Below are positions 837-34,579 of a stretch of 64,000 bases of DNA, one piece after another. The notes beneath the pieces are model-generated. The model was not told the DNA's origin and did no database searches. It saw only the letters and a list, made by a program, of their open reading frames with translations. The DNA comes from Candidatus Thorarchaeota archaeon (GTDB lineage: Archaea; Asgardarchaeota; Thorarchaeia; Thorarchaeales; Thorarchaeaceae), in the NCBI GenBank assembly GCA_003345595.1, contig PRDI01000049.1:26294-90293 (forward strand), written 5' to 3'. The translations under genes were made by a program, and so were the position numbers. The first letter of the stretch is position 1. Each line of letters starts with the position of its first letter.

Positions 837-3800
837 TCATTTTCCCTCACTTCCTATGACTGCCTGCGCTTCCTCAAATTCGTAGGCCACAAGGTTTGGA
901 GGTTTCGCAGCATCTTCGTTCAGATATTCAGCGGCCGTCAACACGCACACGGTCTGCGTGGACTTGCAGATATTACAGCCAGTACCACCGACAGACTGCA
1001 GAAGTGAATTGAGTTCTTGCTGGCTTGGAAAGACAATGTACGATTTCCTGTCGGCACAAAGGTTATAGTGACCGTGGTTTCGCAGGACCCGGTCACTTGA
1101 TTTAACAAGCTCTGCTTCAAGAGCCGCCACGGCCTTCTCCCTCAGGTCAACAATCTTCGAACAGCTGACGACCCAAAGCCCCTCCTCGAAACCTTGAAAC
1201 ATCTGTTTGTCCTTCACTCTCAATACAACCAGCCTCTCATCGACCAGTAGGCCAGTCACTGCCCGTCTTCCTTCTTCCTCACTCATCGGAATCGATCTGC
1301 TTCTGACAGACTGGGCTGCCGTCGTTTGGATGAAATCCAATAGTGTATTCCACCGGATTTTGCCTCCCGACAATTCCACAAAGTCTTGGATTGTTCCGAA
1401 CCACAGACGTGTCTGAACTGCTGAAACCGAAGACGGAATCTGCTTATGCATCACGCTTCTCAGATGTCCATCGATAGGCCTGTCGGTCACGTCAGCAGTA
1501 ATGTTCTCTCTTCGTCCACTATCATGTTTCTTGCCTCTTTTTAGCTGGGTTTCCACCATGCTGTCAAGAGAACTTGGGAATGCTGACACAACGGTGACGC
1601 AATCGAAGTCTTCACTACTATCCATGAGTTCTCTCAAACGCGCGGCGGCAACGCTTCCTCTTACAACAATGTAGAGCTCAGCAGTCCCATTTCCCAAGTA
1701 ACTCATGCGATGTCGAATCCAGTCAAGCGTGCCCTCTATTGACGAAGCTTTCAAATGCTCAGGTACTATGATTACTGCCTTGTCGTCTATTACAATATCT
1801 GGTTCGTCACTAGATGTCCTTTTAGAAGTGGGCGTATTCTCAAGTGCTTTCATTATGTACTGGAAGATGGCCTCCTTTGCAGCCTCAGATCCTCCTCCTG
1901 GCAGTGTGAACAAGAAGCCTCCAGAAACCAACGGCAGCGATTCCCGTTCGATCGTTCCTAGGCAAATGAGATCGTGGATCAACTCCGCCGTGTCTTCGCT
2001 TGTGATTCGCGGGTCTAGTGTCATTAGAAAATGCTGTAATTCATCATTCGTAGCAGCTTTCTGTGATGCAAGAAACGCAACCACTCTATTTGCCAATTCA
2101 CCGAGCCTATCAAACACTAAGCACTGATGTGCATTTTTCTCAGAAACACTTGAGTCCGTTTCAGCGTCTTCTGACGCACATGCGGGCAGTAACGGATGTT
2201 TCTCCACATGACTGTGTTCATCATCCATGCTGTCCAGAACCGAAGCGGTGCCGTCTGAAGCTTGATCTTCTTGTGATAAGCGAGACTGCGATGTCACATC
2301 GAACCGGGCTGTGGCAATCTCAAAGGTTTCCGTCTGAGGCGTGACAATAAGTGCTCTCCCAACCTTCAGGGTTCTAAGATAGCGCTCCTGCTCCTCGGTG
2401 AGGGACATGAACCTGCCCCCAACCGAGCTGTCGTATGGCAGTCGGAAAGTGATCTTCGTTGATGTGTTCGCCAGAATGTTGGAGGAAACGTTAGGTCTGG
2501 TTGAAACCACGATGACACCTTGTCCGGTCGCTCGCTGTAACATGACCATAGATTCACCAGTGGTGACGTCCGCAGCGGACTGCCGCGTGTAGCTCTCGGG
2601 CACAAGGTTGCTTGCCTCTTCTAGAACGACAACGTGCTCCAGTTCGGGGGTGATACCACGGCGCATCGCACCATCAAAGATGCGCTTCGCAACGAGATTG
2701 TAAAGCAACCGTGCTGCATCCATCCCACCAACCCTTGCGACATATCGTAGGTCGAATATGACTCGCCTGTCAAGCAGAGATGATATCTTGACAGCATTAG
2801 CTCCTCCACTGAGTATCGGTCCAAGCGGTTCACGCGACAGTATCTCAAGGCGATTTACTAATGCATCTCTTGTCAGACTTCCAGTCCGATCCTTGCCCGA
2901 GAGTTCATTGACCGCATCAACCAGCGCGTCCACCGAGCTACCGCGCCTGTTCTCACTAGCAACCTTAAGAACAGACTCCCTTAGCAGCTTCTCCATCGCA
3001 GGGGACAGCTCAGTTGATGTTCCCATCTCCTTAAGCAGTTCTCTGAGGATGGCGAATGTTGTGTATGCATGTCTTTCACCTGTGTCCACTTCTGGGTCCA
3101 TCATGTCCATCACAAAAGAGGGATCTAATCCCGGGCGCAGAATCATGACCTGATCGTCAATATCCACAAGGTCGCTATACTCTGACCCCTTCACATCAAA
3201 AATCCACCATGGCACAACAGTTTTGAGAGTTAGTTCCGCCATCAGGTGTTTCACCAGAGTTGTCTTTCCTGTTCCAGTGGCTCCCATGACAGCAAGATGC
3301 TCTCTTAGCCACTCCTTTCTCAAACCCACTCTGTTAAGTTGTCGTCCTCCGTAGACGGTCCACCCAATGAACAGTTCATTATCGACCAGCTCTCTTGCCG
3401 GGACCGGGAAGCTAGGTGCCTGTATTGCAGAAACAACTGGCACAATTTGCACTGGAGTGTTGACGAACGCGGCAAGTCTGCCTACATGCAGCTTCTGGGG
3501 CCTAAGATGCCGTCTTGTAAGCAGCTTCCAAGCCACACCTGTGCCGACTCTCATGTCCCTTACTAGGACATGACTATCCCCACCCCAGATGGATATAGCA
3601 AGTCCCATCACGCCCTCTTGAGTCATCTTCAGCTGAGGTGCGCTTGCGGCGCTTACAACAACATACACAGTTGAATTGAACCAGCCTTCACTACCCTGCA
3701 CTTCTTCGTACTGATCCAAGAGCGTCTTCTTAGCGGCTTGATCGACCAAGGAGTCCTCTCGCTTGCGTTCTCTCTCGCGGATTGATTTCCATTGCCCCTC

Positions 3801-4655
3801 CATTTTTCTTCTTTCTCTGCCAGGCTTGGCACTGGAGAAGACACAGGTCAAGCTCAAGGAAAACCCCTGCTTAAGCGCGGTGGACAGGAAAGTGCCAACC
3901 TGTGATGACGAAGGCGAAGGTGCTACTCTGGGAGCACCAGTGAATACCACTAGCGATTTCCGGAGGTCGGCCTTTCTGTGTAATCTATTCTCAAGTGTGC
4001 ACTTCTCGACAACGAATCCAGCCGCTTCTTCCAGAGCATCGCCTTTCAATTGATGTAGTTCAAGATTAACTAGAGACGCAAGAAGGATTGCCTCTGTTCT
4101 TGTCGCCTCTCTCCTCAAGACTTGCATCATTTCCTCCAAATGATGACCACTTGTGCTAATGAAGAACCTCAGAAACGGCTCGCCCTTAGCTAGTCCCGCC
4201 TCATATGCCATCGTGACTCCGTGGTCCATGCCTGCGCGCAGCGCCAATAGCATCGCTGTGTTGTACTTGGGTTTACCGTCGGGCCCACACTCCACCGATC
4301 CTGATGCAGATGTGATTTCAAGGCAGCACATTGCAATCAAGCGGTTTCCTAGACCGACCACAAGAAACTCATCTTGCACCGAGGATGATATGCCTCCAAC
4401 AAGGATTCCCAGACATGCCAAGACTGCTCCTGCAGAGATTGGCACTCCACAGACCAGAATCTCTACCAGAAGTTTCGACGGAACAGCGGGCTGTTCGATT
4501 AAACCAGCTAGTGGAAGCATATAGACCACGGTCAGGTACAGGGCACATACCACTGCTCCAAACGCATAGGCTGCTCTGATCCAGTGCCCACAATTCAACA
4601 TGATTCTATCAGGAATGGTTCTCCTCTTGTTTCTGGGTGTGCTAGTGCTCATCAT
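837..4655 (-). CDS. giant (1272 aa) membrane-anchored HerA/VirB4/CedB-like (FtsK-HerA superfamily, DUF87-type) ATPase with a ~420-aa C-terminal extension of unknown function
   Basis: About three N-terminal TM helices. Walker A is AVMGATGTGKTT, directly followed by the DUF87 hallmark WWIFDVKGSEY. Walker B is VVVLEEASNL, followed by a GQGVIVVSTRPNVSSNIL...ITFRLP C-terminal ATPase motif. The last ~420 aa have no recognisable family; a possible winged-helix-like stretch is QHFLMTLDPRITSEDTAELIHDLICLGTIE. Confidence 0.6.
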   Translation of the reverse strand: MMSTSTPRNKRRTIPDRIMLNCGHWIRAAYAFGAVVCALYLTVVYMLPLAGLIEQPAVPSKLLVEILVCGVPISAGAVLACLGILVGGISSSVQDEFLVVGLGNRLIAMCCLEITSASGSVECGPDGKPKYNTAMLLALRAGMDHGVTMAYEAGLAKGEPFLRFFISTSGHHLEEMMQVLRREATRTEAILLASLVNLELHQLKGDALEEAAGFVVEKCTLENRLHRKADLRKSLVVFTGAPRVAPSPSSSQVGTFLSTALKQGFSLSLTCVFSSAKPGRERRKMEGQWKSIRERERKREDSLVDQAAKKTLLDQYEEVQGSEGWFNSTVYVVVSAASAPQLKMTQEGVMGLAISIWGGDSHVLVRDMRVGTGVAWKLLTRRHLRPQKLHVGRLAAFVNTPVQIVPVVSAIQAPSFPVPARELVDNELFIGWTVYGGRQLNRVGLRKEWLREHLAVMGATGTGKTTLVKHLMAELTLKTVVPWWIFDVKGSEYSDLVDIDDQVMILRPGLDPSFVMDMMDPEVDTGERHAYTTFAILRELLKEMGTSTELSPAMEKLLRESVLKVASENRRGSSVDALVDAVNELSGKDRTGSLTRDALVNRLEILSREPLGPILSGGANAVKISSLLDRRVIFDLRYVARVGGMDAARLLYNLVAKRIFDGAMRRGITPELEHVVVLEEASNLVPESYTRQSAADVTTGESMVMLQRATGQGVIVVSTRPNVSSNILANTSTKITFRLPYDSSVGGRFMSLTEEQERYLRTLKVGRALIVTPQTETFEIATARFDVTSQSRLSQEDQASDGTASVLDSMDDEHSHVEKHPLLPACASEDAETDSSVSEKNAHQCLVFDRLGELANRVVAFLASQKAATNDELQHFLMTLDPRITSEDTAELIHDLICLGTIERESLPLVSGGFLFTLPGGGSEAAKEAIFQYIMKALENTPTSKRTSSDEPDIVIDDKAVIIVPEHLKASSIEGTLDWIRHRMSYLGNGTAELYIVVRGSVAAARLRELMDSSEDFDCVTVVSAFPSSLDSMVETQLKRGKKHDSGRRENITADVTDRPIDGHLRSVMHKQIPSSVSAVQTRLWFGTIQDFVELSGGKIRWNTLLDFIQTTAAQSVRSRSIPMSEEEGRRAVTGLLVDERLVVLRVKDKQMFQGFEEGLWVVSCSKIVDLREKAVAALEAELVKSSDRVLRNHGHYNLCADRKSYIVFPSQQELNSLLQSVGGTGCNICKSTQTVCVLTAAEYLNEDAAKPPNLVAYEFEEAQAVIGSEGK

Positions 4656-5055
4656 AGACAGACTTCACGACCGCGCCGCACTGGCGAATCATCACTAATC
4701 TAGGAATCCCAATTCCAAGCACCTTGTGTCAGTGTCTGTGATTTGAACTCCCCCGCGACTTTCGTAGTGTCGGACATTGGTGTTCCGTTTCGAGCGTCGT
4801 AACTGATTGGAGTGACTGTTACATTGGTCACGTGAACAGAGCGAAGGTGTTCATTTGCGGTGGTTCTAGGAGGTTAAAAGACACGCTCCAGTAACGAAAA
4901 AGCAGTGGATTGGATGAGAAATAGAGCCGTTTCCGAACAGGACATTGCCAGTTCAAGCGGCGGGCCATTGATGTCAATCCGATATGTCAAAGGCAAGCCC
5001 CTGACTAAATCTGGACCACGGGGGCAAGATGACGGATTCTCCTGAGGCATGTTCA

Positions 5056-7020
5056 ATGAGGAATGTGCCTGTTCTTATTGGAGCCGCAATTGCCCTGATG
5101 CTCTTTATGTTTGCGGCTTGCACAGAAACAGTATCTGCAGAAGAAACGCCTATCTGTCGGGGCAGTGTCGCAACTATCACTATTACCTTGCTCCAGAACG
5201 GCACATATGGAAACCCGGTTTCTAATCAGCCTGTGGAGTTCTTCGATCAGACCCTTGATGTGTTCTTGGGCTTGGTCCTGACTGATGTGGACGGCCGCGC
5301 TCAGTTCGAATGGTCCCTACCAGCAGACCATCCCCTTGGGCCGACCGTGATCAATGCCACCTACCGTGGCAACGAAACTCTGGCACTCGCTCCGTCTTTC
5401 CAATGGACATCACTTACTGTACTCTCCTCCACGAGAATGGATATTCAAGTTGAACGAAGCACTGTGTTTCCCGGGGAAGTAGTACCATTCACAGTCCTGC
5501 TCTTGAACGACATGAATCTTCCACTGCCGTACGCACAACTCACTGTGTTTTGTAACAGCGTGCCAATCACATCGAGGGCTACAAACTCATCTGGCTGGGC
5601 CCGGTTCACTGTTCAGTGCAATGACTCATGGGCTCGTTTGGGAGAGAATGAAATCCGGGTTGCCTATGAACAAAACCTAGTAGTCTTCAATGAGGCGGTA
5701 GCAGAGTCATTCATGGTAACGGTCGAGCAAGTTTCCACAAGTGTCGAAGTGACAAAACCTCCTCTGGGGTCGTACGGACTGAACGACACTCTACGTACAG
5801 ACTTGTTTCTGAGAGCCGACGATGGAGCACTGCCCGGGGCCAGACTTCAAGTTGCTTTGGACGGCGTTTCTCTTGCTGCTGTCTTGACTGATGACTCTGG
5901 TGTGGCACATCTATGTCTAGTAATAGACGGCATATTCACTCTAGGCCCTCATAGGTTAACTTTCGAGTATCCGGGGAATTCTCGATATGCATCATGTTCA
6001 CATGATATTTCCATTAGCGTCCTAAGCAGTGCAAACATTCGAATCATTCTTCAAGGACCCGTCATTGTCAACACAGACAGCAACATCACTATTGAGATCA
6101 GGGATCTGTTCCACCGTCCGATACAGAATGCTACCATCATTCTGCGTGACCTAGTTAGCAATGAAACATTCGCCGGTGCAGTCCCTATTGGCACGACCTC
6201 TGTGAGTTTCAGTTTCCATATTGTAGGAAGAACCGGAGCCAGAAGCTTCCTCATCAGCATTGTTGGGAACGAGTATGTCACGAACAGGACCAGTGCATTC
6301 AGCACTCTTGTCTGGTCTCGTCCTGACTTAATACTGGTCAGAAGCAACATCAGAGGGTATGCTTCCCCCAGTCAGCAGATAATGCTCGAAGTCAGGCTGT
6401 ACGACTCCCAGATGGCCTATACTGACACACTTGTGGAATCCTGGATTGACAATACGACAGCTGTTTCCCATTCATTCACGAATAGCTCTGGCTTCGCGAT
6501 TGTTGAACTCAAAGCGCCACAGGATGAAGGTCTGGTCGATACATGGATTGTCTACAGCGGCAATCTGACTGTTTTTAGAATGTCTAATACCTTACACTAC
6601 ACTTTCACTGTCAGCAGGATAGTCCCGCTGGCGATTGAACTGCACCACTACACAGTAATCATGCCCCTGCTACAGCTCGAGGTTGTCTTGATGGCCTGCG
6701 CTCTCAATGGATCCTTGCTAGAGGGGGTGACAATAAACTATGAATGGCTCTCCATTCGAGGAAGCACAGAGAGTACGCATGATGGCTTGTCCCAACTGTA
6801 CCTGCCAGTACCCGGGTTTCCGGGTTCGTTCATTCTCTCTTATTGGACCGAATCCTCCTCGTACACACTCTCATGTAGTGGGCACTTCGTCATCAATCTA
6901 AATGGAAGTGAAGTTGCAGCAGCTCAAGGTGTCGGCATCACTGGCATGGCAGCAAGCATATGTGTTTCTCTAACATTGGCCGCAATACCAATCATCAGAA
7001 AGAGGTACCTACTGGACTAG
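5056..7020 (+). CDS. secreted or cell-surface protein with repeated beta-rich (Ig/CARDB-like) domains, many N-glycosylation sequons and a C-terminal TM anchor
   Basis: N-terminal signal peptide MRNVPVLIGAAIALMLFMFAACTETVSA. More than 25 N-x-S/T sequons (NATY, NETL, NSSG, NDTL and others). Repeated ~90-aa segments. C-terminus is a hydrophobic helix GMAASICVSLTLAAIPII followed by RKRY. Confidence 0.6.
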   Translation: MRNVPVLIGAAIALMLFMFAACTETVSAEETPICRGSVATITITLLQNGTYGNPVSNQPVEFFDQTLDVFLGLVLTDVDGRAQFEWSLPADHPLGPTVINATYRGNETLALAPSFQWTSLTVLSSTRMDIQVERSTVFPGEVVPFTVLLLNDMNLPLPYAQLTVFCNSVPITSRATNSSGWARFTVQCNDSWARLGENEIRVAYEQNLVVFNEAVAESFMVTVEQVSTSVEVTKPPLGSYGLNDTLRTDLFLRADDGALPGARLQVALDGVSLAAVLTDDSGVAHLCLVIDGIFTLGPHRLTFEYPGNSRYASCSHDISISVLSSANIRIILQGPVIVNTDSNITIEIRDLFHRPIQNATIILRDLVSNETFAGAVPIGTTSVSFSFHIVGRTGARSFLISIVGNEYVTNRTSAFSTLVWSRPDLILVRSNIRGYASPSQQIMLEVRLYDSQMAYTDTLVESWIDNTTAVSHSFTNSSGFAIVELKAPQDEGLVDTWIVYSGNLTVFRMSNTLHYTFTVSRIVPLAIELHHYTVIMPLLQLEVVLMACALNGSLLEGVTINYEWLSIRGSTESTHDGLSQLYLPVPGFPGSFILSYWTESSSYTLSCSGHFVINLNGSEVAAAQGVGITGMAASICVSLTLAAIPIIRKRYLLD

Positions 7021-7028: not shown

Positions 7029-7138
7029 TGGTGCTCCGGCCGGGATTTGAACCCGGGTCTGGGGATCGAGAGTCCCCAATGCTGGGCCGGACTACACTCG
7101 GCCGCACAACGAATCTCACTCGGTGCGACTACCGGAGC
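7029..7138 (-). tRNA. tRNA-Glu (anticodon CUC) with a ~32-nt non-canonical intron in the D-arm region
   Basis: Reverse complement reads GCUCCGGUAG[UCGCACCGAGUGAGAUUCGUUGUGCGGCCGAG]UGUAGUCCGGCCCAGCAUUGGGGACUCUCGAUCCCCAGACCCGGGUUCAAAUCCCGGCCGGAGCACCA. Acceptor stem GCUCCGG/CCGGAGC, anticodon arm GGGGA-CUCUCGA-UCCCC, T-arm CCGGG-UUCAAAU-CCCGG and an encoded CCA are all present. The exons match the archaeal tRNA-Glu consensus GCUCCGGUGGUGUAGUCCGGCC. Confidence 0.6.
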
Positions 7139-7398: not shown

Positions 7399-7605
7399 CT
7401 ATGGACCGAATAGCTGGGTGAGACTACTCCAGCTGTCTTGGAGTAGCTGAAGCAGACTGTTCACAACACCTTGTGCCCATCCTGTTGCTTCAAGGATGAC
7501 TGCTATTATGATGGATACTGTGACCACAGCTAGACCAAGAAGCAGGCTCTCCTCTACCAAGGGTCCTCCAATCTCATTGTCTTTCAGCTTAGTCTGCTTC
7601 GTCAT
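7399..7605 (-). CDS. small Flp/class-III-signal-peptide-like pilin candidate (68 aa from the internal Met)
   Basis: MTKQTKLKDNEIGG|PLVEESLLLGLAVVTVSIIIAVILEATG has a charged N-terminus, a Gly, a Glu four to five residues after the Gly, and a ~20-aa hydrophobic helix. This is the Flp/type IV prepilin architecture. It lies immediately downstream of a secretion ATPase. Confidence 0.4.
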   Translation of the reverse strand: MTKQTKLKDNEIGGPLVEESLLLGLAVVTVSIIIAVILEATGWAQGVVNSLLQLLQDSWSSLTQLFGP

Positions 7606-7766
7606 TTCATGAACCTGTCCAAGGGTTCTCTTCGAGGCTATATTAAGTCCCCATGTTCTTGACGCGGTAATAGCACATCTCTCAGCAGAGCTCAACATAC
7701 TCTATCAGGACGTCCAGCACGCCAAAGACTGGCCAACCGTGTGCAAGAACGACATTCGATGCTCTC

Positions 7767-9527
7767 TTAGCCCCGATACAGAAACGGATGACCATTCTTC
7801 CATAGCCTCTCCCCCATGAACATGGTAATGTCCATTTCAGACCCGCCAATCTCGTTTTCAAGTTCATGAAGTAGCCTCTCGTAGGCGGGCACATGACTTT
7901 GAATCCCTTGTTCCCGGGAATGAAGCATGAATGCTCCATCCTCAGCCCACTTCGGGATTCCAGACTTAGCCGGCTGATTCGATAAGACTACGTTCAGCCC
8001 GGCGAATCTCAGCAGGCCATCGACAACCTGTCTTCTCACTTCAACAACCTCTTTGACTCGTCGTGTGGCATTTCCAGGTGTGGGCCGCTCCATAGTGATT
8101 ATGAGGTCTATGAGTGCGACACTCGATTTATCAATGCCATGATCTGATGTCCAGCGAGAAATGAGACTCGATGCAGAATCACTGTGACAGGTCTGTATTG
8201 TATGAAGACCCGCCGCAATTGCCTGAAACAAAGCACGGCTGTGTTCTGCTGTCTGAATCTCTCCAAGAATCAGATAATCAGGTGACCTGTGAAGGCTTTT
8301 TACGATCTCCTTGCTCTTGTCGAATCCGGGCTCGTTCTCGTCAACTGGATCGACCCTGATTCTTACTTGGTGACACCCTTTGATAGACCTACTTTCGACG
8401 GCATCTTCGATGTAGACTCTTCTCCAGCTTCGCGGCGTAGTCATATCAAGAGCATTCAGCAGAGTAGTCTTCCCGGATCCCGGACCACCTGTTATCGTAA
8501 TGTTGAACCTAGCAGACACGGCAAGCAACAGTATCGCCGCAGCCTCCATACTGAGCGTGCCATTGCGAACCAAGTCCGTTATCGAATATGGGCTCCTACG
8601 GGCCCTACGCATCTCAAGATGTAGTCCGTCTGGGCTCAAGGGTGGCAGGCTCAGAGAGAATCTCAGAACTGCATCACAGACCAACATCTCTGTCTTGAGC
8701 GATGGGTTTCTCCGATCGAGATGGAAATTGCTCTCGGCCCTCACGAGCGTGACGATACGATCAACATCATGCTCATTGACGGTCGTTGTTGAACAACACC
8801 TTCCGAAACGTCGATGGTCAAAGTAAATCTGACTCTCGGGCCGGTCTAGGTAAACCTCCTCGACTTCGTCATCGAGCAGAATTGGAAGGAAGCATCTGAG
8901 GGCTGTTGATCGATGTGCTACGATTTCTGCGATTCTAGTCCTAGTGATAATGCCTACCTCTGGCAGTGAGTGCGAGATCTTCGCTGCAACAGATTCAGAG
9001 ATTCGCCTGAGTCTTATGTTGATGTTTTCTCTGGACAAATGCGGTGCATCATCGAACAGACTCCTGTCGGCACTCAATTCATTCAGCAATGCCATCTCTA
9101 GACGAGTCTTAACTAGCGGGACCGTTTCAAGAAGCAGACCTGAACTGGAGCCATCTTCACGGAAGACTGACAGGTAAGGCCCAACAAGATATGCTTCAGA
9201 TAACAGATGAACCGTGTCAAAGAAACGCTGGTCCTCAACGTAGACCGATTCCCAACCCTCCGCATGCCATGGCGGTCCGTTGAGCGGTTTTCCATCATGT
9301 CTTCCAAGATGAATCAGGCCCTTCCCAGGTTCGACTACTAGAATCTTAGTCTTTTGCCCGTCATCAGAACTCGTCAAGGCTAACCGTTTACATGGCCCCT
9401 GCTCTGCATATTCACACTCTGTGCACCCTGTCTTGGGGCATAGGATAACATTGACCAAGTGTTCTATCACACCAATCGGACTCCACAGCATCAGATGCGG
9501 GCCGGATTCACAAGCCAGAAGCTGCAA
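7767..9527 (-). CDS. type II/IV secretion-system ATPase (VirB11/FlaI/TadA-CpaF/PilB family)
   Basis: Walker A is ITITGGPGSGKTT. Asp box is RRVYIEDAVE. Walker B is DYLILGEIQTAEH. His box is TIQTCHSDSA. A ~300-aa N-terminal domain is typical of the family. Confidence 0.75.
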   Translation of the reverse strand: MQLLACESGPHLMLWSPIGVIEHLVNVILCPKTGCTECEYAEQGPCKRLALTSSDDGQKTKILVVEPGKGLIHLGRHDGKPLNGPPWHAEGWESVYVEDQRFFDTVHLLSEAYLVGPYLSVFREDGSSSGLLLETVPLVKTRLEMALLNELSADRSLFDDAPHLSRENINIRLRRISESVAAKISHSLPEVGIITRTRIAEIVAHRSTALRCFLPILLDDEVEEVYLDRPESQIYFDHRRFGRCCSTTTVNEHDVDRIVTLVRAESNFHLDRRNPSLKTEMLVCDAVLRFSLSLPPLSPDGLHLEMRRARRSPYSITDLVRNGTLSMEAAAILLLAVSARFNITITGGPGSGKTTLLNALDMTTPRSWRRVYIEDAVESRSIKGCHQVRIRVDPVDENEPGFDKSKEIVKSLHRSPDYLILGEIQTAEHSRALFQAIAAGLHTIQTCHSDSASSLISRWTSDHGIDKSSVALIDLIITMERPTPGNATRRVKEVVEVRRQVVDGLLRFAGLNVVLSNQPAKSGIPKWAEDGAFMLHSREQGIQSHVPAYERLLHELENEIGGSEMDITMFMGERLWKNGHPFLYRG

Positions 9528-9660
9528 ACCGGAACCGTTTGTTCCATCAGACGGCAGCTACAAACTAAGATGCCGGTTTCACCGATTTAAGGCCCCTCAG
9601 ATGACAATTCGAAATGGCTCCTCCGTAGGTGACACCGGTCTTCGTATCATGAAGCACGTT

Positions 9661-10719
9661 TCAAGCAGCCAATTCTGGGACCCTCATGGTGCATTCATCC
9701 AAGGTTTTCTTTATCATCCCGTAGTGGTCACGGATGCTATACTCTGCTACTTCTGTCGCCTTGGAAGCCAGTTTCTGAGTCAATACAGAATGTCTTCCAT
9801 ACTCAATAGCTACCATCCGGTCACTAGCATAAGCAACCGAAACAACAAATATGAACGGATTTCGACCACCTCTCCTTGAGGCCGGTATGAAGTCGAGGAC
9901 TACGAGCATTTTGTTTCTCATGGCATTCTCATATTCCTTCGAATCCCACCCCCTCAACTTTGCTTTCCCAACAACCTGCGGGCTATTCATGAGCATCGAC
10001 AACACCCTAGGGATGTAATCTTCAGGCTGTCTCAAATCTGGTGCATGACCTGTCACAGACTTGAGCCGCATCGCTTCTCGAACCATTGCACGCACATTCA
10101 CTCTGTGTCCGCACTTCTCAAAGACATCAGCTATTTCCTCCAGAGTTATCGGAGCTTCGTCCTTGAACTCACGTACTGCCATCAGCAGACATACGGCCAT
10201 TAGGAGAATGTTGTTGGTGACCCTCTCTTTTGCGTCCGAGATGACTTTCTTGTAGAGATACGCAGTTCGATCGCGTACCTGCTCGTTCAACATCAGTAGC
10301 TTCGAAACGTGATTGAGTGTTCTGAGTGCTCTGTACTTTGCTTCACTCCTCCCGATTCTTATACGTGCACTATACACAGTCTTCAGTCGTTTGAATCTCT
10401 TCTGTGCATGGCCGGACAATGCTTGGCCATGAGCATCTCGGAAATACGTGTCCTTGTGAAAACCCATGTAGCTTCCAAGCCCGTCCACAATATGCATTCT
10501 GTTTCCCAATGAAACATACATGGCTGCATCAGGAGTTTCACCATGTTGTTCCTCCCCCATCTGGTAAGTTGGATGTACGTACTCCCTAGAAACCACAAGC
10601 CCACATTCGGCGCATACTATGTGCCCTTGACTGGTCACCAGTTGCCCCGAACAGTCCGGACAGGACCATGAAGAGGTTACGAGCTGTTCACCTGTTTCAT
10701 CAACCAATGGCTGTACCAC
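9661..10719 (-). CDS. tfb: transcription initiation factor IIB (TFB)
   Basis: N-terminal Zn-ribbon CPDCSGQ...CAECG followed by two cyclin-like repeats; length 352 aa. Confidence 0.9.
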   Translation of the reverse strand: MVQPLVDETGEQLVTSSWSCPDCSGQLVTSQGHIVCAECGLVVSREYVHPTYQMGEEQHGETPDAAMYVSLGNRMHIVDGLGSYMGFHKDTYFRDAHGQALSGHAQKRFKRLKTVYSARIRIGRSEAKYRALRTLNHVSKLLMLNEQVRDRTAYLYKKVISDAKERVTNNILLMAVCLLMAVREFKDEAPITLEEIADVFEKCGHRVNVRAMVREAMRLKSVTGHAPDLRQPEDYIPRVLSMLMNSPQVVGKAKLRGWDSKEYENAMRNKMLVVLDFIPASRRGGRNPFIFVVSVAYASDRMVAIEYGRHSVLTQKLASKATEVAEYSIRDHYGMIKKTLDECTMRVPELAA

Positions 10720-10886: not shown

Positions 10887-11252
10887 TCACGTTATCACGA
10901 TATAGAATGTATTGGATGAGAAAGTCTTGCTCTGTGAAGATGTTGGCTTAGCAATCCCGAGCACAACTCTAAGGCCCCCCAACGATCCCAGTATCTCAAG
11001 CCCTTTGGTTTCAGTTCTCCGGAAGACGGTGCCCTCACCATACAGTCTCGCCTGTTCCCCCTTAGGAATAGCCTTGGAGTCAATGACCACATCAACGTGG
11101 TCTTTGGCATTAAACCTACTGGAAAGCGCTTCTGGAAGTTCAATCGTGAGTGTTGCACCATCACTCTTGGACGACACTTTCAAGAGCTTGAGTCTCTTAG
11201 TGTCCGTTTCCTTGATGGATTCGATGATGGCATCCTTGAATCTGACACCCAT
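10887..11252 (-). CDS. hypothetical small protein (121 aa, beta-rich) immediately upstream of tfb
   Basis: ORF with plausible coding character. No family recognised by eye. Confidence 0.35.
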   Translation of the reverse strand: MGVRFKDAIIESIKETDTKRLKLLKVSSKSDGATLTIELPEALSSRFNAKDHVDVVIDSKAIPKGEQARLYGEGTVFRRTETKGLEILGSLGGLRVVLGIAKPTSSQSKTFSSNTFYIVIT

Positions 11253-11375
11253 AACTCTAACACATCCAGCAGACTGAGGCTTCGCGGTGAGCGGCCGAAG
11301 GCATTGAATTAAACCTGTCGCTGCTCTCTTGTGCCGTTTTTTAGGCGTTGCAGCGACAGTTATTCGGTGGGCCTG

Positions 11376-14066
11376 ATGCTTCCGAAACTGCTAGCCATAT
11401 TGTTCCTGTCTGTGGCGATGGCATCTTACTTCGTAGCACCAGTTTCGGCCTTCTATTTCGAACTCTACTACTTCGAAACAGACAAGATGGTGTATGAAGT
11501 TGGCGAAACAATCGAGATGGTCGCCAAGGTCGCTGCTGAGTTCAGCGAAACTGGATCATGTGATCTCTATTTTGCTGTTGTGAGAAGCAACGACTCTGTA
11601 ACTGTCTTCTACGACGGCTACAGCATCCCCTCCGAATCCAGTTCTCGCCTTCTGAGTTCGCCTTATGTCATAGTGCCCCATGACATCACCCCGGGAGTCG
11701 TTGGTGCGAAAGTACAGGTGGTCTTTAACATCGTCGTATACGATGAGTACACCCAAGGCAATCAAACGCAGATTGAGATTGATGTGAAAAGAGGTCACCT
11801 AACGACGTTTCCAGAAAGCCCAATGTCGGTTGAGTTCGGAACCAACGCGACAGTCACACTGAGGATTGCAAGCCCACACAACAACAACGTAGTTCTATCC
11901 AACGAGCCCGTTTCGCTCTATGTCCAGAGTCCAGACAGTTTGCCAGTGTTTCAAACAGAAGCATTGACAGACTCGCAAGGTCTGGTTCAATTGAATTGGA
12001 CCGAATCCATGGGCCCACCAGGGGTATACAATCTGACTGTCAATGGAGCAGGCACTGCTTCATTCCTACCGTTTTCCGAATCACTACAAGTCACTGTGCA
12101 ACCTGGAGCATCGAGCCTGGAAGTACGGACCGTCACCGAACAGGTCTACTGCCAATCCTACGACTGTACTCAGATGGAGTTCGCAGAAGTCACTGTTGAA
12201 CACCTGAACACATCACAGTCCCCAATCCATGATAGCGAACTGAATTGGAATGCATCATTTGGCTGCGGATCCATGAACAATCTAGGGAATGGAACCTATA
12301 GTGCACTAATACCTTTCAGCACCGGGCCCGGACTGTATGCCATTGACCTCACAGCAACAAATGCCGCTTATCAGACTGCCGTAAGCACAGTTGTCATACG
12401 GGCAAATAGCAGACCACTATTAGCGAATGTCACACTGCTCTCGGAGGTGGTATGCGGCACGCTAATCCGAATTCTGGTGGTAATCACTGACGGATTGAGC
12501 AGAACCCCAGTTGGTTCACTCCCATTCACACTCGGTATTACAGCAAGTAATGAAGACCTGACTGTAGTGGAGGGCGCCACCAACTCTTCGGGCGCTATAC
12601 AAATCACAGCATACGTACCAACCACATCTTGGGGTAGTGGGTTTCTATCTTTGATTGTCCAGAACACAAGCTGCTACAGCGATTTGTCTGAAACACTACC
12701 GATTGATGTCCTATTTCATCCTAGCGTGCTAAGCCAAGCAAATACCCCGATCATTATCAACTACAATGCAGAAGTCCGCCTGCTCCTGTCAGACCCCATT
12801 GGATTGCCGGTCTTCGGTGCAGTAGTCGAGCTACATACACCCGACAACGTCACAGTGGTCATGAACTCCACGAGCTACGACGGTACCACGCTCCTCCGCT
12901 GGCGAGTTCCTCCGGGAATTGGCCTTGGAAACCAGACTCATCTGTTGGTGATACACAGAAACGATGGAAGGTTCATCAGTCATACAACGAGATACTTGGT
13001 ATTCATGGTTCTTTGCCCACTGTTTCTTGAGTCCTCCAATAGCACAGTGCAAGTCGTACGGGGGCACAATGTATCCATTTGGCTCACGATGGTATCGGGC
13101 GGGCCTCAGTGCCAACTGATCAATCTTACGCTCAGAAGCAATGACAGTTCATTGACAACTTCGGCTGTGATTCCCACTGACACGCACGTGGAAATCACAC
13201 TGAAGATGAGCTCAAACATTGCTCCAGGCCCATACGAGGTCTATGCAGAAGTCCTGTCCGGGCCATTTGTCATACTGAACCAGTCTCAAGTCGAAGTCAT
13301 TGTTATTGGCACTCTACAAGCGGGTTTCGCCATTGTTTCAGCATTCTATGCTGAAGCCCTCATAGTTGATCCTATTGTGAGAGATGACACTGATAGCACA
13401 CCAGACTCGGTATCGGCAACCCTATATTTCAGTGATTGCGGAATTCAAATCCTCTTGGATCCGGCCCTTCCTCGTATGCCATGGTCGATTCCACTGCCCC
13501 TTCAAGTGGCCCCCGGAGCTCACAACGTTACAATCGAAATCAGCCGTCCTTGGTTTGTCGCAGCACGCAGGTCTATTCTCGTGTTTGTATGGATGCGAAC
13601 AAGAATTGTGATCTCAGTATCGACCTACAGACCAAACAAGACAGGTTCTGACCCCGGGCTGGAACTGGTTCAGGTCGCTGACAACACATCGAGTAGCTCT
13701 CCCGGTTCAATCATAAGCCCTCCGCCAATCTTGTTCAATGGCACAACTTCAACCGTGTCGCCTACTGCACGAGAAACCTCTCTTACGAGCTGCCCAAGGT
13801 TCAGCTCTGGCACCAACAACCTGTCAACTGTGTCAGCAAACTGCCTTACCTCAGAATCAGGAAATGGCCATAGAGTTCTAAGCCTCAAGGAACGAATCGA
13901 CAGGGGACTCGCTCTGTTCATGACCACTTCTTCCACAGTCCTCGAAGTACTTCCGAAGGAAACCACCCCCCACTCTGCTGTTTGCGGCCCTGAGAATACG
14001 ACATCAGTCAGAAGGGCTCTCTCCCTCAGAATCTTGTCTGCGAGTCTTCTCACGAGCCTGTCGTGA
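11376..14066 (+). CDS. large secreted glycoprotein-like surface protein; the 3' end is unresolved because the ORF lacks a stop codon before the convergent korA and reads antisense through it as S/T-rich low complexity
   Basis: Signal peptide MLPKLLAILFLSVAMASYFVAPVSA. Many N-x-S/T sequons and repeated beta-rich domains. After about nt 13650 the frame overlaps korA on the opposite strand and is probably not genuine coding, or reflects a frameshift or assembly error. Confidence 0.5.
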   Translation: MLPKLLAILFLSVAMASYFVAPVSAFYFELYYFETDKMVYEVGETIEMVAKVAAEFSETGSCDLYFAVVRSNDSVTVFYDGYSIPSESSSRLLSSPYVIVPHDITPGVVGAKVQVVFNIVVYDEYTQGNQTQIEIDVKRGHLTTFPESPMSVEFGTNATVTLRIASPHNNNVVLSNEPVSLYVQSPDSLPVFQTEALTDSQGLVQLNWTESMGPPGVYNLTVNGAGTASFLPFSESLQVTVQPGASSLEVRTVTEQVYCQSYDCTQMEFAEVTVEHLNTSQSPIHDSELNWNASFGCGSMNNLGNGTYSALIPFSTGPGLYAIDLTATNAAYQTAVSTVVIRANSRPLLANVTLLSEVVCGTLIRILVVITDGLSRTPVGSLPFTLGITASNEDLTVVEGATNSSGAIQITAYVPTTSWGSGFLSLIVQNTSCYSDLSETLPIDVLFHPSVLSQANTPIIINYNAEVRLLLSDPIGLPVFGAVVELHTPDNVTVVMNSTSYDGTTLLRWRVPPGIGLGNQTHLLVIHRNDGRFISHTTRYLVFMVLCPLFLESSNSTVQVVRGHNVSIWLTMVSGGPQCQLINLTLRSNDSSLTTSAVIPTDTHVEITLKMSSNIAPGPYEVYAEVLSGPFVILNQSQVEVIVIGTLQAGFAIVSAFYAEALIVDPIVRDDTDSTPDSVSATLYFSDCGIQILLDPALPRMPWSIPLPLQVAPGAHNVTIEISRPWFVAARRSILVFVWMRTRIVISVSTYRPNKTGSDPGLELVQVADNTSSSSPGSIISPPPILFNGTTSTVSPTARETSLTSCPRFSSGTNNLSTVSANCLTSESGNGHRVLSLKERIDRGLALFMTTSSTVLEVLPKETTPHSAVCGPENTTSVRRALSLRILSASLLTSLS

Positions 14067-14803
14067 GTTTCGGGGTCCGAAGTCATCCTCAGCCCATTAT
14101 TGTCGTGGGTTGAACCGGTCACGAGCAGATTGTGGCCATCACCAAATCTTGGCATTATTGCATGTCCGCTCGCATCAATGCCGCCAAATGACGCTTCTCC
14201 TGCTCGTGCGAATCTTCTCTGCACTGTCACATCTCTGTTTCCTGTAATAACAACCCTCTCTCGAGAGTGAGCGACAATCTCGTCGGACAGCAGTATCGTT
14301 GGATGCCTCAGGCGTTCAGACAGGAGGAAGGCCCTCAGGGTCAGCTCATAAGTCTCTTCTGCTGAGCTCGGAGCAAGCACTATGCTTTCGTAGTCACCAT
14401 GAGACCCCCATCTGGACTGCATGACGTCTCCTTGGGCAGCCTTAGTTGCTTGCCCTGTGCTCGGGCCTGCTCTCTGAACGTCCACAATGACACAAGGTGT
14501 TTCAGTCATGACGGCATAGCCTATGCCTTCCTGCATAAGACTGAACCCCGGTCCCGAGGTAGCAGTCATTGAAAGAAGGCCACCCCACGAGCTACCAATG
14601 ATGGCGGAGATTGCCCCTATCTCGTCTTCCATCTGGAGGTACGTGCCCCCCACCAGTGGTAACCTTTCAGCCATGATTTCAGCAATTTCAGATGCAGGTG
14701 TGATTGGATAGCCAGCAAAGAAGCGGCAGCCCGCAGCTATGGCCGCTTCAGCACAAGCTTGATTCCCTTGCCAGAAGTGAACCGATCTGTCTTGACCAGA
14801 CAT
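13670..14803 (-). CDS. korA: 2-oxoacid:ferredoxin oxidoreductase alpha subunit (KorA/PorA-type)
   Basis: GNQACAEAAIAAGCRFFAGYPITPASEI, TATSGPGFSLMQEGIGYA, VIVDVQRAGPSTGQAT, QGDVMQSRWGSHGD and the conserved C-terminal L(R)TLWPFP region. No beta-subunit gene lies adjacent. Confidence 0.85.
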   Translation of the reverse strand: MSGQDRSVHFWQGNQACAEAAIAAGCRFFAGYPITPASEIAEIMAERLPLVGGTYLQMEDEIGAISAIIGSSWGGLLSMTATSGPGFSLMQEGIGYAVMTETPCVIVDVQRAGPSTGQATKAAQGDVMQSRWGSHGDYESIVLAPSSAEETYELTLRAFLLSERLRHPTILLSDEIVAHSRERVVITGNRDVTVQRRFARAGEASFGGIDASGHAIMPRFGDGHNLLVTGSTHDNNGLRMTSDPETHDRLVRRLADKILRERALLTDVVFSGPQTAEWGVVSFGSTSRTVEEVVMNRASPLSIRSLRLRTLWPFPDSEVRQFADTVDRLLVPELNLGQLVREVSRAVGDTVEVVPLNKIGGGLMIEPGELLDVLSAT

Positions 14804-16579: not shown

Positions 16580-16603
16580 CTTTAGGAGGATGCTCGAATC
16601 ATT

Positions 16604-16888: not shown

Positions 16889-16904
16889 GAGGTCCAAGAG
16901 CAGG

Positions 16905-20619: not shown

Positions 20620-20712
20620 GAGAAGCCAACACAGGAGCTTAAATACGAATCAACATGCCTAAGCAGTAGACGCAGAGCAGCTGCCCGACCGCGTACGCCG
20701 TCTAGAGCAAAG

Positions 20713-34563: not shown

Positions 34564-34579
34564 GAGGGTCGAGAGCAAG

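What the first reader, a model, noticed from the sequence alone, without database searches (positions are those of the whole stretch)
837..4655. 1272-aa membrane-anchored HerA/VirB4-like ATPase with an uncharacterised ~420-aa C-terminal extension
DUF87/HerA-type ATPases are usually 500-650 aa. Here the motor (Walker A GATGTGKTT, WWIFDVKGSEY, Walker B VVVLEEASNL, C-terminal VSTRPN...ITFRLP) is preceded by about three TM helices and followed by about 420 aa with no recognisable family. That region includes a putative winged-helix-like segment and a Cys-containing stretch GTGCNICKSTQTVCV. TM anchoring with a nucleic-acid-translocase core is the CedB/VirB4/TraG architecture. The extra C-terminal region could be a substrate-recruitment or DNA-binding module.
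Basis: seen in the sequence. Interest (0 to 1): 0.7.

Follow-up and report, generated by a model that had tools for sequence, protein, structure and literature searches.

The report
Membrane-anchored CedD-like ATPase of Asgard archaea
This is a real, conserved 1272-residue gene of a Thorarchaeota (Asgard) chromosome that encodes a membrane-tethered ring ATPase related to archaeal DNA-import motors, carries a previously unclassified C-terminal module, and sits beside pilus-like genes, so it may mark an undescribed Asgard cell-surface DNA-handling machine.

Summary
The ORF (837-4655, minus strand, 1272 aa) and every quoted motif are present. It is not a fusion artefact. More than 120 protein clusters and about 70 Thorarchaeota species genomes encode the same full-length protein. 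A canonical NurA-HerA pair lies elsewhere in the window.

Anatomy:
- an N-in hairpin of two (not three) TM helices;
- a disordered acidic linker;
- two units of winged helix plus nuclease-like fold, without catalytic residues, the second with an invariant His/Cys3 cluster.

The TM-NTD-ATPase core occurs across Asgard lineages with different C-termini. Unit 1 is shared with one sister lineage. Unit 2 is Thorarchaeota-only.

In three divergent lineages the gene stays near a TFB paralogue, a PilB/TadA-like ATPase and a pilin-like small protein, although the surrounding genes differ.

Best reading (about 0.4): the cytoplasmic DNA-translocating motor of an Asgard envelope machine, with the C-terminus as a substrate or partner adaptor. 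It is a new variant of a known kind. All evidence is computational.

The parts
837..4655 (-). Whole gene: 1272-aa membrane-anchored HerA-clade ATPase (the stop codon is 837-839)
   Evidence: ORF list. An identical protein lies on a 163-kb contig. Full-length orthologues at 49-84% identity occur in >120 clusters and in about 70 Thorarchaeota species genomes.
4392..4610 (-). TM hairpin, residues 16-88 (two helices). The preceding tail, residues 1-15 (4611-4655), is Arg/Lys-rich, so the N-terminus and everything after the hairpin are inferred to be cytoplasmic.
   Evidence: Kyte-Doolittle peaks at 28-54 and 60-94. AlphaFold helices at 16-49 and 61-86. The topology follows from the positive-inside rule and is an inference.
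3336..4391 (-). N-terminal domain (NTD), residues 89-440, alpha/beta, no known family
2292..3335 (-). FtsK/HerA-superfamily ATPase domain, residues 441-788, with a helical insertion at about 526-607
3258..3284 (-). Walker A GATGTGKTT (residues 458-466)
   Evidence: G458, T460, G461, G463, K464 and T465 are invariant in 61 sequences.
2604..2633 (-). Walker B VVVLEEASNL (residues 675-684). The STRPN motif (718-722) follows and aligns with SQRPS of a solved HerA.
   Evidence: alignment to 9c1m_M.
2142..2291 (-). Disordered acidic, Ser-rich linker, residues 789-838
   Evidence: pLDDT about 30. 8% mean identity among orthologues.
1899..2141 (-). Winged-helix domain 1, residues 839-919
1530..1898 (-). 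alpha/beta domain 1, residues 920-1042, with invariant R999-G1000-S1001, R1008 and S1024-A-F-P motifs. Together with wH1 it forms 'unit 1'.
   Evidence: Unit 1 is also found at the C-terminus of the sister-lineage proteins P0140/P0295 (E 1.7e-9) and in a 226-aa metagenome protein, P0251.
1431..1529 (-). Second disordered linker, residues 1043-1075
   Evidence: pLDDT 30-50. 13% identity.
1215..1430 (-). Winged-helix domain 2, residues 1076-1147
   Evidence: 59% identity among orthologues.
840..1214 (-). alpha/beta domain 2, residues 1148-1272, with an alpha-beta-beta-beta-alpha-beta order like restriction-endonuclease/ERCC1-type folds. Together with wH2 it forms 'unit 2', found only in Thorarchaeota.
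942..986 (-). Cys-containing stretch GTGCNICKSTQTVCV (residues 1224-1238), part of a putative metal site made of H1194, C1200, C1227 and C1230 (plus C1237)
   Evidence: H1194, C1200, C1227 and C1230 are invariant in 61/61 sequences and C1237 in 59/61. That they bind a metal is an inference.
5029..7020 (+). Divergently transcribed 663-aa Ig-like surface protein with a signal peptide and a C-terminal TM anchor. The 373-bp intergenic region is 4656-5028.
   Evidence: Weak Big_3_5/Big_1 hits. Hydrophobic ends. The same divergent pairing holds in all Thor loci examined and in the sister lineage, where the N-terminal 165 aa are 24% identical, E 2e-15.
7399..7605 (-). 68-aa pilin-like protein: a variable leader of about 12 aa, then the invariant GGPLVEESLLLGLAVVTVSI.IAVIL
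   Evidence: 70 loci aligned. Homologues in three other lineages share [KR]G-SP[LV][IV]EE followed by a hydrophobic helix. The class-III signal peptide reading is an inference.
7767..9527 (-). PilB/TadA/VirB11-family (T2SSE) ATPase, 586 aa
   Evidence: Pfam T2SSE 2.4e-22. NCBIfam best hits are TadA-family 3.4e-29, FlaI 6e-24 and TrbB 3e-23, all below cut-off. Orthologues lie near the ATPase in the sister lineage (38% identity) and in a Helarchaeota-like contig (39%).
9661..10719 (-). Divergent TFB (TFIIB) paralogue, 352 aa, upstream of the T2SSE gene on the same strand
   Evidence: Pfam TFIIB and Zn_Ribbon_TF hits are weak. NCBIfam TFIIB 3.3e-16, 59 bits against a cut-off of 384. It overlaps the T2SSE gene in L005 and L009. 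It lies directly upstream of the ATPase gene in L090.

Best explanation
The gene encodes a ring-forming FtsK/HerA-superfamily ATPase of the HerA clade. A two-helix N-in hairpin holds it on the cytoplasmic face of the membrane. A family-specific N-terminal domain lies between the membrane and the motor, as described for CedB/CedD. The most likely job is ATP-driven translocation of DNA (or a nucleoprotein) at the membrane, as the cytoplasmic motor of an envelope machine conserved in Asgard archaea.

The other recurrent parts of that machine are a PilB/TadA/VirB11-type ATPase, a type-IV-pilin-like small protein, a dedicated TFB paralogue and, in Thorarchaeota and their sister lineage, an Ig-like surface glycoprotein.

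The Thorarchaeota-specific C-terminus hangs on a ~50-residue disordered acidic tether. It consists of two units of winged helix plus a catalytically dead, nuclease-like alpha/beta domain. The second unit is probably stabilised by a His/Cys3 metal site. I read this region as an adaptor that binds the DNA substrate or a partner protein and hands it to the ring.

Shown: the ORF, the domain anatomy, the conservation, the phyletic spread and the gene linkage. Inferred: hexamer formation, DNA as substrate, topology, metal binding, adaptor function and any link to DNA exchange.
For: Real and conserved. Full-length orthologues at 49-84% identity occur in >120 clusters and in about 70 Thor species genomes, including one hit in a complete 2.58-Mb chromosome. 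Each structured domain is 44-70% identical among orthologues, while the linkers are 8-13%.

Architecture. TM + unknown NTD + HerA-like ATPase is what PMC11868833 describes for CedD, which is needed for DNA import.

C-terminus. It has two winged helices and nuclease-like folds.

Distinct from repair HerA. A canonical NurA + 503-aa HerA pair lies at 36958-39636, and that HerA is 25% identical over the ATPase domain only.

Linkage. The TFB paralogue, the T2SSE ATPase and the pilin-like gene lie within 16 kb of the ATPase in three settings: Thorarchaeota, the sister lineage L009 (27% identical ATPase) and the Helarchaeota-like contig L090. Gene order and the flanking housekeeping genes differ between the three. 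The pilin-like gene is also adjacent in L107/L108/L110. This composition parallels Sulfolobales TFB3 + Ups pili + Ced (titles and abstracts).
Against: No CedA/VirB6-like polytopic channel protein, relaxase or prepilin peptidase lies in the 64-kb window.

All curated family cut-offs are missed by a wide margin.

The NTD shows no detectable similarity to the VirB4 NTD.

In Baldrarchaeia-type, Atabeyarchaeum and most other non-Thor loci, none of the partner genes is within 10 kb.

The gene lies in a vertically inherited housekeeping and replication neighbourhood, so part of the Thor synteny is uninformative.

A preprint reports type-IV-filament systems as largely absent from Asgard archaea.

There are no experimental data of any kind.
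Confidence: 0.4

Rival explanations
1. It is a housekeeping, FtsK-like chromosome pump. A membrane-anchored hexamer clears or segregates chromosomal DNA at division or membrane-remodelling sites. The C-terminal winged helices play the role of the FtsK gamma domain (DNA recognition). The pilus-like neighbours are unrelated.
For: It is single-copy, vertically inherited and core-genome. One hit occurs in a complete Thor chromosome. It is present in Thor, Baldr, Hel, Hod, Njord, Frey and Atabeya lineages. In this window it lies in a chromosomal stretch rich in replication and repair genes: Cdc6, RFC, MCM, Hel308-like, NurA-HerA. In Baldrarchaeia it lies next to PCNA, primase and GINS. The layout TM + motor + winged helix is analogous to FtsK (established knowledge of FtsK alpha-beta-gamma).
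Confidence: 0.2
2. It is a motor for protein or filament export rather than DNA. It would energise secretion, surface display or assembly of the neighbouring Ig-like glycoprotein or of the pilin-like protein. It would stand in for the missing PilC/TadB-type platform, in the way the FtsK-like EssC/EccC ATPases drive type VII secretion.
Against: The closest sequence and structure relatives are DNA-acting enzymes: HerA, CedD, DptH. The C-terminal domains are of nucleic-acid-binding fold types. The Helarchaeota surface protein shows no sequence similarity to the Thor one.
Confidence: 0.2
3. It is an anti-virus defence protein of the HerA-plus-effector type (like Sir2-HerA or DUF4297-HerA), with the nuclease-like C-terminal domains as a fused effector.
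For: There are weak PADLOC hits to HerA models and mad8 over the ATPase domain. Solved anti-phage HerA complexes are among the sequence and fold matches. The C-terminus has restriction-endonuclease-like folds.
Against: The position is fixed and syntenic across about 70 species, not a variable island. There is no PADLOC hit for the C-terminus. No conserved PD-(D/E)xK catalytic set exists: the only near-invariant Asp (1198) is Asn in this protein, and there is no ExK. TM anchoring and the large NTD are not features of the known HerA defence systems. PHROGs hits are limited to the P-loop region.
Confidence: 0.05

Closest known systems
[quoted passage not shown]
   Same: Same layout: N-terminal TM segment(s) + N-terminal domain of unknown function + C-terminal HerA/VirB4-like ATPase (PMC11868833). 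CedD is the best-scoring named NCBIfam model for this protein and its relatives. In Sulfolobales the Ced genes work with type IV (Ups) pili and the TFB paralogue TFB3. Here a PilB-like ATPase, a pilin-like protein and a TFB paralogue are linked to the gene.
   Different: Scores are 41-97 bits against a cut-off of 600, and they cover only the ATPase part of the model. The NTD is unrelated at sequence level. There is an extra 480-aa C-terminal region. No CedA/CedA1/CedA2 homologues were seen nearby. The host clade is Asgard, not Thermoproteota. The TFB paralogue here is full-length and co-transcribed with the PilB-like gene, whereas I recall TFB3 as truncated (from memory, not checked).
Canonical archaeal HerA (HerA-NurA-Mre11-Rad50 end-resection helicase)
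   Different: Our protein has no HAS-barrel hit, is TM-anchored, has a 350-aa NTD and a 480-aa C-terminal extension, and is not next to NurA. The genuine NurA + 503-aa HerA (HAS-barrel + DUF87) pair is a separate locus in the same window, 25% identical over the motor.
VirB4 / VirB3-VirB4 fusions and VirD4-type coupling proteins of type IV secretion
   Different: TIGR00929 scores 14.6 bits against 643, and TrwB_AAD_bind is below its cut-off and covers only the P-loop. There is no VirB6, VirB8 or relaxase. The family profile finds no VirB4 or TrwB chain in PDB at E<0.01. The small protein looks like a type IV/Flp pilin, not VirB2.
FtsK/SpoIIIE
   Same: A membrane-anchored motor followed by a linker and a winged-helix domain, which is a functional analogy to the FtsK gamma domain.
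Winged-helix + restriction-endonuclease-fold modules such as the C-terminal part of Can2/Card1/VC1899 (DUF1887), and the inactive ERCC1/FAAP24 nuclease-like domains
   Different: There is no sequence similarity and no CARF domain. The statistical support is weak (Foldseek E >= 0.003). Here the units are fused to a membrane ATPase.

Membership tests
FtsK/HerA superfamily, HerA clade (broad) | RecA-like P-loop core with Walker A, Walker B and the conserved [ST]QRP-type Arg after sensor 1; fold match to solved members | tested here: met
Canonical DSB-repair HerA | N-terminal HAS-barrel domain | tested here: not met
   No HAS-barrel hit in the 1272-aa protein at E<=1. The 503-aa HerA at 38125-39636 does give one, though weak (E 7.5e-4).
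Canonical DSB-repair HerA | Operon partner NurA (often with Mre11/Rad50); score above the NCBIfam equivalog cut-off | tested here: not met
   NurA at 36958-38118 is adjacent to the other HerA. HerA_Thermprot scores 24.6 bits against 800.
CedD / CedB | Architecture: TM segment(s) + NTD + C-terminal HerA-like ATPase | tested here: met
   compared with the description in PMC11868833.
CedD / CedB | Score at or above the curated equivalog cut-off (CedD 600, CedB 700 bits) | tested here: not met
   CedD 40.9 bits and CedB 14.5 bits for the window protein. The best relative, P0140, scores 97 bits and matches only the ATPase part of the model, positions 200-525 of 527.
CedD / CedB | NTD structurally homologous to part of the VirB4 NTD | tested here: inconclusive
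CedD / CedB | Genomic association with CedA (VirB6-like) and the small CedA1/CedA2 membrane proteins; role in DNA import | tested here: not met
   No ORF in the 64-kb window has three or more strong hydrophobic segments except the surface proteins. Small 2-4-TM proteins do flank the gene in the Baldrarchaeia-type and L107 lineages, but they were not shown to be CedA-like. Function is not testable here.
VirB4 (T4SS) | TIGR00929/VirB4 model above cut-off; co-located VirB3/6/8, relaxase or T4CP | tested here: not met
VirD4/TrwB coupling proteins | Two N-terminal TM helices directly followed by the NBD with an all-alpha domain; Pfam TrwB_AAD_bind/T4SS-DNA_transf above cut-off | tested here: not met
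   TrwB_AAD_bind scores 18.8 against 20.5 and covers only residues 443-500. A 350-aa NTD separates the TM hairpin from the NBD.
FtsK/SpoIIIE | Pfam FtsK_SpoIIIE above cut-off; gamma winged helix directly after the motor | tested here: not met
Anti-phage HerA systems (Sir2-HerA, DUF4297-HerA, others in PADLOC) | Strong match to a defence HerA model plus an adjacent or fused known effector; variable, island-like distribution | tested here: not met
   PADLOC HerA models match only 50-60 aa at the P-loop and mad8 reaches 1.5e-14. The C-terminus has no hit. The locus is syntenic across about 70 species.
PD-(D/E)xK nucleases (for the two C-terminal alpha/beta domains) | alpha-beta-beta-beta-alpha-beta core fold | tested here: inconclusive
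PD-(D/E)xK nucleases (for the two C-terminal alpha/beta domains) | Conserved catalytic D...(D/E)xK residues | tested here: not met
   Position 1198 is D in 59/61 sequences but N in this protein. No conserved ExK exists. The invariant residues are instead H1194, C1200, C1227, C1230, S1205, F1209-P1210 and Q1212. In domain 1 they are R999-G-S, R1008 and SAFP.
Type IV pilin / Flp-type prepilin (for the neighbouring 68-aa protein) | Short charged leader ending in Gly, Glu at +5, N-terminal hydrophobic helix; cleavage by a prepilin peptidase | tested here: inconclusive
   The sequence pattern fits in four lineages: [KR]G-SP[LV][IV]EE or GGPLVEE, followed by about 24 hydrophobic residues. No family model matches. 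No peptidase gene was found in the window, and cleavage is not testable here.

The most novel reading that the evidence does not exclude
Asgard archaea carry a vertically inherited envelope machine that no one has described. It couples type-IV-pilus-like parts (a PilB/TadA-like ATPase and a pilin-like subunit, without a classical platform protein) to a membrane-anchored CedD-like DNA translocase. A dedicated TFB paralogue encoded in the same cluster controls it. It would be an Asgard counterpart of Ups+Ced or of bacterial competence machines, used for cell-to-cell DNA exchange or uptake. In Thorarchaeota the motor has acquired a unique double winged-helix/dead-nuclease adaptor.
Probability: 0.22. 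Interest if true: 0.85.

Novelty: new variant of a known kind. Interest (0 to 1): 0.6.

Why it matters
Nothing is known about how Asgard archaea, the closest prokaryotic relatives of eukaryotes, exchange or take up DNA. Type-IV-filament systems have been reported as largely missing from them.

This gene defines a family found so far only in Asgard lineages: membrane-anchored HerA-clade motors whose closest named relative is the DNA-import ATPase CedD. In three divergent lineages it stays linked to a PilB-like ATPase, a pilin-like protein and a private TFB paralogue.

If the linkage reflects one machine, it gives a concrete and testable candidate for intercellular DNA transfer, or another membrane-coupled DNA transaction, in this group. 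Orthologues can be sought in the few cultured Asgard strains.

The C-terminal module (two winged-helix/nuclease-fold units, one with an invariant His/Cys3 site) is absent from every family library searched (Pfam, NCBIfam, PADLOC, PHROGs). It would be a new accessory-domain family for ring translocases.

If the linkage is coincidental, the finding reduces to an unusually decorated HerA paralogue of unknown role. That would be of interest mainly to annotators.

Tried and rejected
- Fusion artefact or frameshift: rejected. The same 1200-1290-aa protein is found everywhere in Thorarchaeota, and every domain is under purifying selection.
- Canonical HerA with an accessory domain: rejected. The NurA-HerA pair lies elsewhere in the window.
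- Tandem duplication of the two C-terminal units: hhalign gives probability 2% and E 0.024, so it is not supported. The one aligned stretch (helix, then D..K/S-x-[IV]-[IV]-[IF]-P-[EQ]) is in the equivalent structural position.
- Sequence-profile searches of each unit against PDB found nothing meaningful. Foldseek against PDB with the C-terminal model found nothing at E<1e-3.
- The afdb50 fold library was unavailable. I therefore could not look for the NTD or the C-terminal module in AlphaFold DB.
- A word-indexed homologue search with a divergent alignment (A4) and another with P0140 each returned almost nothing. Two capped searches were largely wasted.
- Defence system: PADLOC gave only P-loop-level hits.
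- Virus or mobile element: PHROGs hits covered only the P-loop region.
- I tried to name the sister lineage (L009/L010/L082) through exact look-ups of ten of its proteins, but no names are on record. I therefore call it unnamed; an Arf-family GTPase next to its ribosomal cluster suggests Asgard.
- The Helarchaeota surface protein shows no sequence similarity to the Thor or sister-lineage Ig-like protein. Only its topology is comparable.
- Literature searches for this family, for Thorarchaeota + DUF87 and for UCP018868 found nothing.
- No dedicated TM predictor was available, so topology rests on hydropathy, AlphaFold helices and the positive-inside rule.

Full report
**1. The observation**

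The window is archaeal and chromosomal. It carries intron-containing tRNAs and genes for TFB, Cdc6, isopentenyl-phosphate-kinase-like protein, RFC, MCM and others. The identical protein lies on a 163-kb metagenome contig next to ribosomal protein S10 and GlmS.

The ORF at 837..4655 (-) of 1272 aa exists. Pfam recognises only DUF87/HerA central domain, at residues 442-603. Scanned alone, the C-terminal 433 residues and the N-terminal residues 93-440 match nothing.

Two corrections are needed. There are two, not three, TM helices: hydropathy peaks at 28-54 and 60-94 and AlphaFold helices at 16-49 and 61-86. A ~350-aa structured N-terminal domain separates the hairpin from the motor.

**2. Not an artefact, and not the repair HerA**

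More than 120 protein clusters, all from Thorarchaeota/Promethearchaeota/Sifarchaeia MAGs, are 1157-1292 aa long, cover 91-100% of the query (95% or more in all but two) and are 49-84% identical. A scan of one genome per species found the gene in about 70 Thorarchaeota-type species, with one hit in a complete 2.58-Mb chromosome.

Among 60 orthologues the mean identity by region is as follows:
- TM hairpin 34%
- NTD 49%
- ATPase 70%
- winged helix 1, 52%
- alpha/beta 1, 50%
- winged helix 2, 59%
- alpha/beta 2, 44%
- the two linkers 8% and 13%

Every folded part is therefore under selection.

The same window holds a canonical NurA (36958-38118) followed by a 503-aa HerA with HAS-barrel and DUF87 (38125-39636). 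That HerA is only 25% identical to the motor of the 1272-aa protein. The large protein is a separate paralogous line.

**3. Anatomy**

Two AlphaFold2 models were built on 61-sequence alignments. Residues 1-830 gave mean pLDDT 77, and residues 790-1272 gave mean pLDDT 79. The parts are:
- (a) an Arg/Lys-rich tail and a TM hairpin, inferred N-in, so the rest is cytoplasmic;
- (c) the ATPase, 441-788;
- (d) a disordered acidic linker, 789-838;
- (e) winged helix 1 (839-919) and alpha/beta domain 1 (920-1042);
- (f) a second disordered linker, 1043-1075;
- (g) winged helix 2 (1076-1147) and alpha/beta domain 2 (1148-1272).

No PD-(D/E)xK catalytic set is conserved. Position 1198 is Asp in 59/61 sequences but Asn here, and there is no ExK. 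By contrast H1194, C1200, C1227 and C1230 are invariant in 61/61 sequences and C1237 in 59/61. Domain 1 has invariant RGS, R1008 and SAFP motifs of unknown meaning. A test for tandem duplication of the two units was negative (hhalign probability 2%).

**4. Family and distribution**

An exhaustive phmmer search with residues 73-1272 found 1985 representatives at E<1e-3. Full-length matches reduce to nine or so Thor-type representatives.

The next tier is 24-35% identical and matches only the NTD plus ATPase (query residues ~135-790). These proteins are 740-1440 aa long. Every one that carries a source name is from an Asgard lineage: Baldrarchaeia, Helarchaeota, Hodarchaeota, Njordarchaeota, Freyarchaeota or Promethearchaeota. 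The genome scan added Atabeyarchaeum and an Odinarchaeota-labelled contig. So the TM-NTD-ATPase core is spread through the Asgard lineages and carries lineage-specific C-termini.

Profile searches of the fetched proteins show unit 1 (wH1 + alpha/beta 1) also at the C-terminus of the 937-940-aa proteins of an unnamed sister lineage (P0140/P0295, E 1.7e-9), and in a 226-aa metagenome protein, P0251. Unit 2 appears only in Thor-type sequences.

Among curated named families the best match is CedD. The window protein scores E 1e-10. P0140 scores E 1e-27 over model positions 200-525 of 527. Sixteen of 30 family members match. All of these are far below the equivalog cut-off of 600 bits and are limited to the ATPase part. 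A family profile against PDB sequences finds only HerA-type chains and DptH, and no VirB4 or TrwB.

CedD is described as TM + unknown NTD + HerA/VirB4/CedB-like ATPase and is required for DNA import in Saccharolobus (PMC11868833).

**5. Gene neighbourhood**

In all Thor loci examined, read in the orientation that puts the ATPase gene on the + strand, the order is:
- surface protein (-)
- 121-aa protein
- TFB paralogue
- T2SSE ATPase
- ~68-aa small protein
- Ig-like type-I membrane protein (-)
- the ATPase (+)
- isopentenyl-phosphate-kinase-like gene (-)
- S10

Because the housekeeping flanks are syntenic too, this alone proves little. Three further observations make the linkage meaningful.

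(i) In the unnamed sister lineage (27% identical ATPase; L009/L010) the flanks are entirely different: QRPTase, DHOase, OTCase and the ribosomal S2 cluster. Even so, the ATPase is still divergently paired with a ~650-aa signal-peptide/C-terminal-TM protein whose N-terminal 165 aa are homologous (E 2e-15). The TFB paralogue (43% identity), the T2SSE ATPase (38%) and the small protein (42%) lie 7 kb away as an overlapping operon.

(ii) In the Helarchaeota-like contig L090 the TFB paralogue (39%) lies directly upstream of a 1375-aa family member that has about 4-6 TM segments. The small protein is 2.3 kb downstream. A ~600-aa type-I membrane protein, a 77-aa TM protein and the T2SSE ATPase (39%) follow within 10 kb. 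The Hel surface protein has no sequence similarity to the Thor one.

(iii) In another lineage (L107/L108/L110) the small protein and a 109-aa 4-TM protein are divergent from a 948-aa family member.

Against this, the Baldrarchaeia-type loci have only an 81-83-aa 2-TM protein upstream and none of the other partners within 10 kb. Atabeyarchaeum and most of the remaining metagenome loci show none.

The small protein is striking. After a variable ~12-residue charged leader, the sequence [GA]GPLVEESLLLG[LI]AV.T.SI.IAVILQATGWAQ is virtually invariant in 70 loci whose ATPases are only ~50% identical. The homologues in the other three lineages share [KR]G-SP[LV][IV]EE followed by a ~24-residue hydrophobic helix. 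A Gly at -1 and a Glu at +5 are the type IV/Flp prepilin signature (established knowledge). Cleavage is not shown, and no family model matches.

The T2SSE ATPase is nearest to TadA-type, FlaI and TrbB/VirB11 models, all below cut-off. No polytopic platform or channel protein, and no prepilin peptidase, was seen in the 64-kb window.

**6. Mechanism**

The best-supported picture is a hexameric HerA-clade motor held under the membrane by its hairpin. The NTD lies between membrane and ring, as proposed for CedB/CedD and VirB4. The motor moves DNA or a nucleoprotein. The Thor-specific C-terminus, on a flexible acidic tether, offers two winged-helix/dead-nuclease units as binding sites for substrate or partners.

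The recurring company of a PilB-like ATPase, a pilin-like protein and a private TFB paralogue resembles two known combinations of a pilus plus a DNA translocase. One is the Sulfolobales TFB3 + Ups pili + Ced combination (papers listed). The other is the bacterial competence machinery (from memory).

I put this at about 0.4. The alternatives are an FtsK-like housekeeping pump (0.2), a protein or filament export motor (0.2) and defence (0.05). The rest is unknown. Hexamer formation, substrate, topology, metal binding and adaptor function are inferences. The ORF, domain layout, conservation, distribution and linkage are shown.

**7. Novelty**

No paper in the searchable library describes this family. 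A 2026 preprint states that archaeal type-IV-filament systems are largely absent from Asgard archaea.

The protein is a new variant of a known kind: TM-anchored HerA-clade ATPases of the CedB/CedD type. It forms a new clade, seen so far only in Asgard lineages, and carries a C-terminal module that matches no model in any family library searched here. It fails the membership tests for CedD, CedB, VirB4, VirD4, FtsK, canonical HerA and defence HerA. It works most like the first of these.

**8. Caveats**
- The models have pTM 0.48-0.58, and domain borders are approximate.
- No dedicated TM predictor was available.
- The NTD and the single C-terminal domains could not be fold-searched separately.
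- AFDB was unavailable.
- The 'Odinarchaeota' contig L085 shares near-identical neighbours with Baldrarchaeota contig L084 and may be mis-binned.
- The taxonomic identity of the sister lineage is unknown.

Noticed in passing
window 36958-38118 (+) and 38125-39636 (+): A canonical NurA gene is followed directly by a 503-aa HerA (HAS-barrel + DUF87). The organism therefore has the standard end-resection pair in addition to the 1272-aa paralogue. The two motors are 25% identical.
   Followed up: yes
window 7399-10719 (-): An operon-like trio: a divergent TFB paralogue (9661-10719), a PilB/TadA/VirB11-family ATPase (7767-9527) and a 68-aa pilin-like protein (7399-7605). In other loci the TFB and ATPase genes overlap by 8-17 nt. 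A general-transcription-factor paralogue co-transcribed with a secretion-type ATPase is unusual.
   Followed up: partly
window 7399-7605 (-), and 70 related loci: The small protein's mature part (GGPLVEESLLLGLAVVTVSIVIAVILQATGWAQ) is almost invariant across Thorarchaeota species whose neighbouring proteins are only 30-55% identical. The ~12-residue leader is free to vary. This is far stronger constraint than on anything around it.
   Followed up: partly
window 32684-33646, 33643-34563, 34382-35161 (+): A trio of a Roadblock/LC7-domain protein, a 306-aa protein with no family and an Arf/Rag-like small GTPase. Orthologues of all three sit within 4-6 kb of the family ATPase in the Helarchaeota-like contig L090 (9542-12090) and in L168 (7323-9838). 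Here they are 28 kb away.
   Followed up: partly
window 11331-14066 (+) versus 13670-14803 (-): The 911-aa Ig/MG2-like surface-protein ORF overlaps the 3' end of the convergent POR (pyruvate:ferredoxin oxidoreductase) gene by about 400 bp. The gene called on the source contig is 896 aa. The tail of the mechanical ORF is probably not all coding, or one of the two calls is off.
   Followed up: no
window 10887-11252 (-): A conserved 121-aa protein lies between the surface-protein gene and the TFB paralogue in all Thor loci (38-60% identity). Its only hit is weak, to RNA polymerase subunit G/Rpo8 (E 8e-4, below cut-off).
   Followed up: no
window 15062-15165, 50884-51002, 51095-51190 (+); 7033-7107 (-): Rfam finds four tRNA genes, three of them 96-119 nt long, presumably with introns. 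ARAGORN found only the tRNA-Glu at 7033-7107, which lies between the Ig-like gene and the pilin-like gene.
   Followed up: no
window 15386-25082: A dense replication and repair cluster: Orc1/Cdc6, a small winged-helix protein (16631-16885) that is also next to Cdc6-like genes in L107, RFC large and small subunits, MCM and a Hel308-type helicase. A DUF460 protein (40830-42941) and Kae1-Bud32 (43298-44979) lie further along.
   Followed up: no
L084 9090-12355; L085, L087, L089: In Baldrarchaeia-type loci the family ATPase (1067-1093 aa) is preceded by an 81-83-aa two-TM protein on the same strand. In L084 the ATPase gene is split into 303-aa and 749-aa ORFs (a frameshift or assembly error). The contig labelled Odinarchaeota (L085) has neighbours almost identical to Baldrarchaeota L084, which suggests mis-binning.
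   Followed up: partly
L016/L063, L026/L053, L040/L062: Three Thorarchaeota MAGs each carry two contigs with a copy of the gene (56-63% identity to the window protein). This could be a true paralogue or mixed strains in the bin.
   Followed up: no
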